DNA from: Eledone cirrhosa
Lineage: Eukaryota
Assembly: GCA_964016885.1 (NCBI GenBank)
Contig: OZ024757.1
Coordinates: 35,402,001-35,466,000 of the forward strand
Reading direction: 5' to 3'
Length of the DNA: 64,000 bases
Shown here piece after piece: positions 58,958 through 59,439 of the stretch (its first letter is position 1; each line of letters starts with the position of its first letter). The translations under genes and the position numbers were made by a program. The notes under the pieces were generated by a model, which was not told where the DNA came from, did no database searches, and worked only from the letters and a program-made list of their open reading frames with translations.

Positions 58958-59011
58958 ATATATATATATATATATAATATAAGATCAAAAGATGGTTAAA
59001 GGAGTTCAATA

Positions 59012-59082
59012 TATTTTATTATGCGCATTTCAAAAACAAACATCATCAAACAATAATATTTGTGTTTTCATCAGATAAAACA
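59012..59082 (-). ncRNA. Type I hammerhead ribozyme (mirror copy)
   Basis: Reverse complement of 59188-59258. Confidence 0.8.
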
Positions 59083-59187
59083 GGAGAACATGATATGAAG
59101 GCTAAAAAAAAAAAAACACTTGTTGATAGTGCAGTTTTAAATCAACATATCATATTTTTTTTTTTTAGCCTTCATATCATGTTCTCC

Positions 59188-59258
59188 TGTTTTATCTGAT
59201 GAAAACACAAATATTATTGTTTGATGATGTTTGTTTTTGAAATGCGCATAATAAAATA
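59188..59258 (+). ncRNA. Type I hammerhead ribozyme (intact)
   Basis: UGUUUUAU-CUGAUGA-AAACACAAAUAUUAUU guuu GAUGAUGUUUGUUUUU-GAAA-UGCGCA-UA^AUAAAAUA; predicted cut after 59250. Confidence 0.85.
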
Positions 59259-59379
59259 TATTGAACTCCTTTAACCATCTTTTGATCTTATATTATGCAT
59301 ACTCCAGTCCCACAAACTGTAGAGTGCTTCTTATCCGATATCTGCATTGCTTTATTGTACTACAATAAAACTCACCTCC

Positions 59380-59439
<60 letters not shown>

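What the first reader, a model, noticed from the sequence alone, without database searches (positions are those of the whole stretch)
58978..59381. Ambisense double hammerhead: intact ribozyme on both strands of one hairpin
Both 138-bp arms carry the complete fold (8-bp stem I, CUGAUGA, 16-bp wobble-rich stem II, GAAA, palindromic AUGCGCAU, AUA triplet). A transcript from either direction would hold one sense ribozyme and its exact antisense, so ribozyme folding competes with a long dsRNA stem. That could act as a built-in off switch or as an siRNA/ADAR substrate (inference).
Basis: partly seen in the sequence, partly recalled or inferred. Interest (0 to 1): 0.75.

Follow-up and report, generated by a model that had tools for sequence, protein, structure and literature searches.

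The report
Back-to-back stubs of a Penelope retrotransposon
The two mirror-image ribozyme motifs are real, but this is one of many back-to-back end pieces left by a common jumping gene, and the pieces mostly stop at one fixed spot that is likely the capped start of its RNA, which would explain why such short hairpins are so common.

Summary
Observation confirmed; interpretation mostly not. 58978-59115 and 59155-59292 form a perfect inverted repeat, and each arm carries a type I hammerhead motif. It is an ordinary insertion of a Hydra-clade Penelope-like element (PLE). The genome holds 9,386 exact matches to the core; 76 of the first 100 lie in back-to-back pairs. Long copies encode an 800-aa RT/GIY-YIG protein. 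Inverted truncated PLE copies and opposite-strand hammerhead pairs are in print (2021, 2014), and this scan found the layout before on other DNA of this genome.

What this follow-up adds: at least 4,607 arms stop at one site 124-125 nt upstream of the ribozyme cut site (3,364 read through). G is the commonest non-templated preceding letter (1,676 of 3,271), as expected from copying an mRNA cap. No pile-up occurs at the cut site (37 versus control 36), so the templates were likely uncut. The hairpins are likely cDNAs that ran off the 5' end of the element's mRNA and were joined head to head. A read-through RNA is predicted to fold as dsRNA and lose the ribozyme fold, a by-product of the layout. 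A second family repeats the boundary but not the G excess. No RNA data were available.

The parts
58957..58977 (.). (TA)n target tract, left flank; also ends the older sister insertion at 58517-58956
   Evidence: sequence
58978..59150 (-). Tail-less arm: pLTR copy from the family's fixed 5' boundary (A of ATATG at 59150) to the short 3' end
59012..59082 (-). Type I hammerhead motif of the left arm (core 59074-59068, predicted cut after 59020)
59151..59154 (.). 4-nt junction filler. It puts a G in front of the left arm's first base; at this locus the G can equally be part of a short duplication of the arm's first five letters
59155..59382 (+). Tailed arm: pLTR copy truncated about 35 nt inside the fixed boundary, running to the long 3' end
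59188..59258 (+). Type I hammerhead motif of the right arm (CUGAUGA 59196, GAAA 59239, palindromic helix III 59242-59249, predicted cut after 59250)
59297..59382 (+). One-sided tail, 86-90 nt. In full-length copies this sequence continues into the 5' UTR, and the ORF starts about 80 nt further on
59297..59327 (+). Small bulged hairpin just past the short end (predicted -8.0 kcal/mol); candidate RT start signal named in earlier scan notes
59383..59448 (.). (TA)n target tract, right flank

Best explanation
This is a short back-to-back insertion of a Hydra-type Penelope-like retrotransposon in a TA repeat, likely made when its reverse transcriptase copied the uncut 5' end of the element's own mRNA from two internal start points and the two copies were joined head to head. 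Shown: family, parent ORF, TA target, one tail per insertion, a fixed 5' boundary 124-125 nt upstream of the ribozyme cut site with a G excess, and no pile-up at the cut site. Inferred: the boundary is the capped transcription start in the pLTR. Both ends of the cut (TA)n DNA prime copying, one at the short site and one at the long site. On an mRNA that begins in the first pLTR the enzyme runs off after only about 170 or 260 nt; the two cDNA ends anneal through the self-complementary ATAT start or are patched with filler. Copying from a second pLTR of a tandem transcript gives the kilobase and full-length copies. The two ribozymes are passengers. If the locus is transcribed through, the RNA is predicted to be a long dsRNA stem with no ribozyme fold.
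For: Family and layout: 9,386 core matches. Of 41 neighbouring pairs within 6 kb among the first 100 matches, 38 are back-to-back; 23 of 38 are under 400 bp apart and 14 of 38 are 205-235 bp apart. Parent: ribozyme-to-ribozyme unit of 3,940 nt; 800-aa ORFs from the first Met in L032, L130, L131, L132 and 798 aa in L121, with Hydra motifs. One tail per insertion: 22 of 23 short pairs, 32 of 33 perfect-junction pairs (13 of 46 loci had no scorable pair), 25 of 25 G-junction pairs (5 of 30 without a partner), 13 of 15 long pairs. Boundary: 34 of 48 arms stop 120-127 nt upstream. Genome-wide, the 26-mer at the boundary follows G 1,676, T 1,190, A 405 and non-templated xC 1,336 times, against 3,364 read-through. 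There are 747 perfect palindromic junctions. G is 51% of G/A/T cases in a 12%-G element, and 20 of 30 sampled G junctions are not short duplications. Untemplated G marks cap copying in LINE-1 and SVA (PMC4859970), and the PLE transcription start lies in the pLTR (PMC8557442). Cut site: 37 matches against 36 for a control two bases on; 12 of 20 and 5 of 10 sampled are true truncations. This agrees with in vitro data on another PLE, where uncut RNA is the main substrate and RT starts at two sites bounding the tail (PMC11167929). Arms of one insertion differ at 1.3 of 125 nt against 8.2 between insertions (50 of 57 loci used).
Against: No RNA evidence for the start site, the cap or cleavage. 10 of 30 sampled G junctions, and this locus's own G, can be explained as short duplications, and some others as microhomology with the partner arm. 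In a second family (397 matches), 21 of 30 arms start within about 6 nt of one site, but G precedes only 3 of those 21. The T count (1,190) is also high, partly from ATAT overlap. Genome counts use exact patterns, so they are lower bounds biased to young copies, and the sampled loci come mostly from contig C1. Two separate cDNAs and one cDNA folding back on itself are not told apart. Pfam and PDB searches did not name the protein, and no tree was built.
Confidence: 0.8

Rival explanations
1. Same element and same RNA end, but one cDNA is made and its 3' end folds back on itself, so that the second arm is copied from the first. This is a variant of the joining step.
For: Arms nearly identical within a locus; 17 variants private to one locus occur on both arms, in 8 of 50 loci, many of them in one sister-subfamily locus. 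This locus has a 13/12-nt A/T run on both arms where most scored loci have 6 or 7. Several long pairs end at nearly the same point.
Against: The G sits on tailed arms (11) and tail-less arms (14) alike, and sometimes on both. Many long pairs have very unequal arms. In vitro, both target strands are cut and extended (PMC11167929). One shared template RNA or later gene conversion would also give shared variants.
Confidence: 0.3
2. The short hairpin is a non-autonomous mini-element that is copied as a unit.
For: 747 identical perfect junctions and a narrow size peak.
Against: The perfect junction occurs on at least three common arm haplotypes that long ORF-bearing copies also carry. Junction fillers vary widely, and spacing forms a continuum up to 5 kb.
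Confidence: 0.08
3. A selected ambisense switch: the antisense arm exists to silence the ribozyme or to feed siRNA/ADAR pathways.
For: Predicted complete loss of the ribozyme fold in the whole hairpin. An earlier unchecked scan note reports fossil A-to-G hyper-editing in a PLE of this genome.
Against: The layout is explained by the insertion mechanism. No conservation specific to this locus was seen. Neighbouring hairpins decay. A palindromic helix III needs a second sense copy, and single motifs of this kind did not cleave in vitro (PMC4209133), so there may be little to switch off.
Confidence: 0.06
4. Assembly artefact from fold-back chimeric long reads.
For: No short-read contig spans the whole locus.
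Against: Asymmetric arms, a 39-nt spacer, a one-sided tail and different flanks. Short-read contigs show joints at 59144-59153 and TA ends at 59296 for the family (may be the same sample).
Confidence: 0.02

Closest known systems
Hydra clade of C-terminal-endonuclease Penelope-like elements (Craig et al. 2021, PMC8557442; sections 10 and 11, passages and one supplement look-up seen), including Hydra-1_Obim
   Same: Single RT + C-terminal GIY-YIG ORF, DKT, CxCX5C linker, CxxC/CxH around E and N, hammerhead in the pLTR, (TA)n target, inverted 5'-truncated copies, one-sided tail.
   Different: Unit 3.9 kb (published: generally under 3 kb); RWT instead of RWK; tail 86-90 nt (published for PLEs: 30-40). 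Identity to Hydra-1_Obim was not tested. I saw no fixed 5' boundary or G excess in the parts read.
PLE hammerheads with palindromic helix III (Cervera and de la Pena 2014, PMC4209133; parts 1-2 of 4 read)
   Same: Type I motif in the pLTR, short palindromic helix III predicted to work as a dimer, long helix II; dual motifs 100-700 bp apart on opposite strands already reported in Schistosoma.
   Different: Helix II is longer here (15 pairs) and closes with A-U, not the usual G10.1-C11.1. No activity test exists for this motif.
Poseidon PAc of Anolis in vitro (Frangieh et al. 2024, PMC11167929; parts 1-2 of 4 read)
   Same: Two internal RT start sites bounding the tail, both target strands cut and extended, AT-rich target, uncut RNA as main template.
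   Different: Different clade; the sites are closer together there; in the parts read, inverted products and run-off at a capped 5' end were not addressed.
LINE-1 twin priming and cap-derived untemplated G (review PMC4859970; passages seen)
   Same: Two primings per insertion give an inversion; an extra G marks copies that reach the capped RNA end.
   Different: LINE-1 inversions do not duplicate the 3' end (recalled); here both arms hold the same pLTR segment.
Viroid-like and ambivirus RNAs with ribozymes in both polarities (search listing only)
   Same: A ribozyme on each strand.
   Different: Those are circular RNA replicons whose two ribozymes serve rolling-circle replication; this is a chromosomal inverted repeat of one motif.

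Membership tests
EN+ Penelope-like element | Single ORF with RT and GIY-YIG endonuclease | tested here: met
EN+ Penelope-like element | Partial tandems forming pLTRs | tested here: met
   pLTR-ORF-pLTR in L046, L121, L130, L131 and others; unit 3,940 nt in L046
EN+ Penelope-like element | Inverted 5'-truncated copy and one-sided tail | tested here: met
EN+ Penelope-like element | Intron in the 5' UTR / pLTR | not testable with these tools
   no RNA run listed
Hydra clade | DKG motif changed to DKT | tested here: met
   SDKTNN in P0001
Hydra clade | CxCX5C linker; CxxC and CxH around E and N | tested here: met
   CNCRIKNKC, CNLC-NEK-INRR-CLH
Hydra clade | RWK motif | tested here: inconclusive
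   RWT in P0001; RWK in several homologs at the same column
Hydra clade | (TA)n insertion | tested here: met
Hydra clade | Phylogenetic placement with published Hydra RTs | not tested
   no tree built
Type I hammerhead ribozyme | Conserved core CUGANGA / GAAA / NUH with helices I and II | tested here: met
   Rfam models did not score it
Type I hammerhead ribozyme | Self-cleavage | not testable with these tools
   no assay; genomic copies show no excess of ends at the cut site
Non-LTR retrozyme | Head-to-tail tandem of a small non-coding unit with a hammerhead in each | tested here: not met
   arms are inverted and derive from a coding 3.9-kb element
Viroid-like / ambisense RNA replicon | Circular RNA genome with ribozymes in both polarities | tested here: not met
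   chromosomal retrotransposon stub with thousands of relatives

The most novel reading that the evidence does not exclude
The commonest PLE insertion product is a pair of cDNAs that run off the capped 5' end of the element's own mRNA. Because RT starts inside the 5' UTR, a unit-length mRNA can only yield a 200-400 bp double-hammerhead hairpin, and only tandem transcripts yield live copies. The hairpin junctions thus map the transcription start and the cap from DNA alone, and show that in vivo templates are capped and uncut, not ribozyme-cut or circular.
Probability: 0.55. Interest if true: 0.55.

Novelty: new member of a known kind. Interest (0 to 1): 0.32.

Why it matters
The double ribozyme itself is ordinary PLE debris. 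The family-wide junction data bear on two points that the PLE papers read here call open: how inverted insertions form and what the hammerhead does. If the boundary is the capped start, thousands of insertions record that the template was uncut, capped mRNA. That would argue against ribozyme-cut or circular templates for these short copies and explain why PLEs need tandems to spread intact. It also implies thousands of potential long-dsRNA loci in this genome as a side effect. The claim is testable with one CAGE or 5'-RACE experiment.

Tried and rejected
DNA search of the own genome with the arm found nothing (the tool skips common words), so exact patterns were used. Rfam gave no hammerhead hit; the E-value list held mostly miRNA-type hairpin matches, all below gathering score. 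Pfam and PDB gave no useful hit for the ORF. No RNA holder was listed, which says nothing on expression; only contigs of runs of unrecorded kind were laid. The idea that long copies start at the ribozyme cut site was tested and rejected: among 24 read-through junctions, starts inside the pLTR were scattered (+6 to +103 and upstream), and the genome-wide count matched the control. The G excess did not replicate in a second family. My notebook figure of a 97-nt tail was wrong; it is 86-90 nt. Searches for a prior report of a cap G or fixed 5' boundary in PLEs found none (papers; scan notes). The library lacks most subscription papers, including the original Penelope papers, so absence from print is not shown. 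bioRxiv supplements were not available, and only one look-up was made in the Craig supplement. No structure prediction was run, since the protein is not the question.

Full report
1. Observation. A core scan of the window on both strands returned four candidates; two are these arms, with CUGAUGA at 59196 (+) and 59074 (-), an 8-pair stem I, GAAA, the palindrome AUGCGCAU and an AUA triplet. Stem II has 15 pairs and one mismatch. Helix III is 2 bp, and closing it raises the energy from -9.3 to -6.4 kcal/mol. The 71-nt motif folds no better than shuffles, and Rfam does not score it. Two copies co-fold through the palindrome with the stems formed. Folding the whole 404 nt from either strand gives one long stem; stems I and II have probability 0.0, and forcing them costs about 102 kcal/mol.

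2. What it is. A 32-nt core pattern occurs 9,386 times in the 3.0-Gb genome, the reversed control 0 times. Among the first 100 listed matches, 38 of 41 neighbouring pairs within 6 kb are back-to-back, 42 bp to 5.1 kb apart; 23 are under 400 bp. Long members contain an ORF. L046 is a pLTR-ORF-pLTR tandem with a 3,940-nt unit, and five fetched loci hold 798-800 aa from the first Met. The protein has RWT, DKT, YRDDG, a CxCX5C linker, a C-terminal GIY-YIG-like block and CxxC/CxH around E and N, matching the published description of the Hydra clade (PMC8557442 section 11). A homolog search gave 25 proteins at 31-42% identity, one from Argonauta hians, and the motifs are conserved in nine aligned. 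The host is probably a cephalopod (inferred, not determined). The window's element is two pLTR stubs of this family in a (TA)n tract.

3. Geometry. The two arms end at two fixed 3' points 86-90 nt apart, and nearly every insertion has one of each: 22 of 23, 32 of 33 (13 of 46 loci unscorable), 25 of 25 (5 of 30 without a partner) and 13 of 15 long pairs. The tail is the start of the 5' UTR; the ATG lies at +215 from the cut site. This matches the two internal RT start sites shown in vitro for another PLE (PMC11167929). A bulged hairpin follows the short end at 59297-59327, as earlier scan notes describe for other families; the second hairpin folded only weakly in my one check. Arms of one insertion are far more alike than arms of different insertions (1.3 against 8.2 differences in 125 nt; 50 of 57 loci), and 56 of 57 pairs share a 6-nt haplotype tag. 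Both arms therefore come from one template molecule or one source copy.

4. The 5' boundary. In pairs chosen without regard to junction (23 plus this locus), 34 of 48 arms stop 120-127 nt upstream of the cut site, at the A of a TCA motif. Genome-wide, the 26-mer starting there follows G 1,676 times, T 1,190, A 405 and a non-templated xC 1,336 times, against 3,364 fully templated read-throughs; 58% of these 7,971 arms stop here. 747 loci have a perfect palindromic junction on this site, on several haplotypes. Short-read contigs show joints at the same place. The template has C before the A, so the G is not templated by its own arm. Of 30 sampled G junctions, 10 are explained by short duplications and 20 are not, though some of those may borrow a G from the partner arm. 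The G at this locus is of the ambiguous kind. Untemplated G is read as cap copying for LINE-1 and SVA (PMC4859970), and PLE promoters lie in the pLTR (PMC8557442). In a second family from this window (397 matches), 21 of 30 arms start within about 6 nt of the A of another TCA and 5 read through, but only 3 of 21 follow a G. The boundary replicates; the G does not.

5. The ribozyme. If cut RNA were a template, arms should begin at +1. They do so no more than at +3: 37 against 36 matches, with 12 of 20 and 5 of 10 sampled being true truncations. The arms span the cut site intact. This fits the in vitro finding that unprocessed RNA is the main substrate and the report that single motifs of this type did not cleave (PMC4209133). 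A re-ligated circle cannot be excluded for long copies, but it would have no 5' end at -124.

6. Mechanism. Most likely (0.8 for the overall account; 0.55 for the cap step): the protein binds its mRNA near the 5' end and cuts (TA)n on both strands. The two DNA ends prime at the short and long sites. On an RNA that starts in the first pLTR, both copies run off after about 170 and 260 nt, sometimes copying the cap, and are joined through ATAT or filler. The alternative for the last step is fold-back of one cDNA (0.3). A self-copying mini-element (0.08), a selected switch (0.06) and an artefact (0.02) fit less well.

7. Prior knowledge. Inverted truncated copies and one-sided tails are textbook PLE features (PMC8557442), and dual hammerheads on opposite strands were noted in 2014. 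I found no report of the fixed 5' boundary with a G excess, within the limits of the library. Papers seen: PMC8557442 passages, sections 10-11 and one supplement look-up; PMC11167929 and PMC4209133 parts 1-2 of 4; bioRxiv 10.64898/2026.07.22.740005 part 1 of 5; PMC4859970 and PMC5860796 passages; others as search listings only.

8. Verdict. The feature is real, of a known kind and a new family member. The ambisense switch is a by-product, not a design. Interest 0.32, resting on the junction evidence about the PLE template.

Noticed in passing
window 58509-58956: Older sister insertion (about 73-75% identical, arms 89% alike) with the same layout; both cores read AAAA instead of GAAA. The finding sits in the TA run at its tail end.
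   Followed up: partly
window 63193-63640: Another family's fold-back (arms 96% alike) with an intact core on the - arm, a broken core on the + arm and a one-sided tail.
   Followed up: partly
window 57678-57876: Fold-back of a second hammerhead family (397 genome matches); its arms also start at a fixed TCA site.
   Followed up: yes
window 14813-15034, 9685-9932, 15528-15790, 27903-28350, 42484-42640, 42874-43040, 43847-43962: Further local inverted repeats, 68-100% alike; probably more PLE stubs of different ages.
   Followed up: no
window 48814-57667: Very homogeneous tandem array, 46-bp unit, 192.5 copies, 95% matches, ending directly at the 57678 fold-back.
   Followed up: no
L130:606-9448: Near-complete 8.8-kb palindrome of two full-length units, 98.9% alike over 4,140 bp, one with an intact 800-aa ORF.
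   Followed up: partly
L046, unit positions about 3094-3653: A 111-bp internal tandem in the 3' non-coding part whose copy number varies between copies.
   Followed up: no
L190 and two more pairs (C13, C27, C1172): Tiny hairpins whose two arms both start at the ribozyme cut site; too few to exceed the control but worth counting genome-wide.
   Followed up: partly
window 59103-59115 and 59155-59166: A/T run of 13 and 12 on the two arms where most scored copies have 6-7; shared by both arms and seen at no other scored locus.
   Followed up: partly
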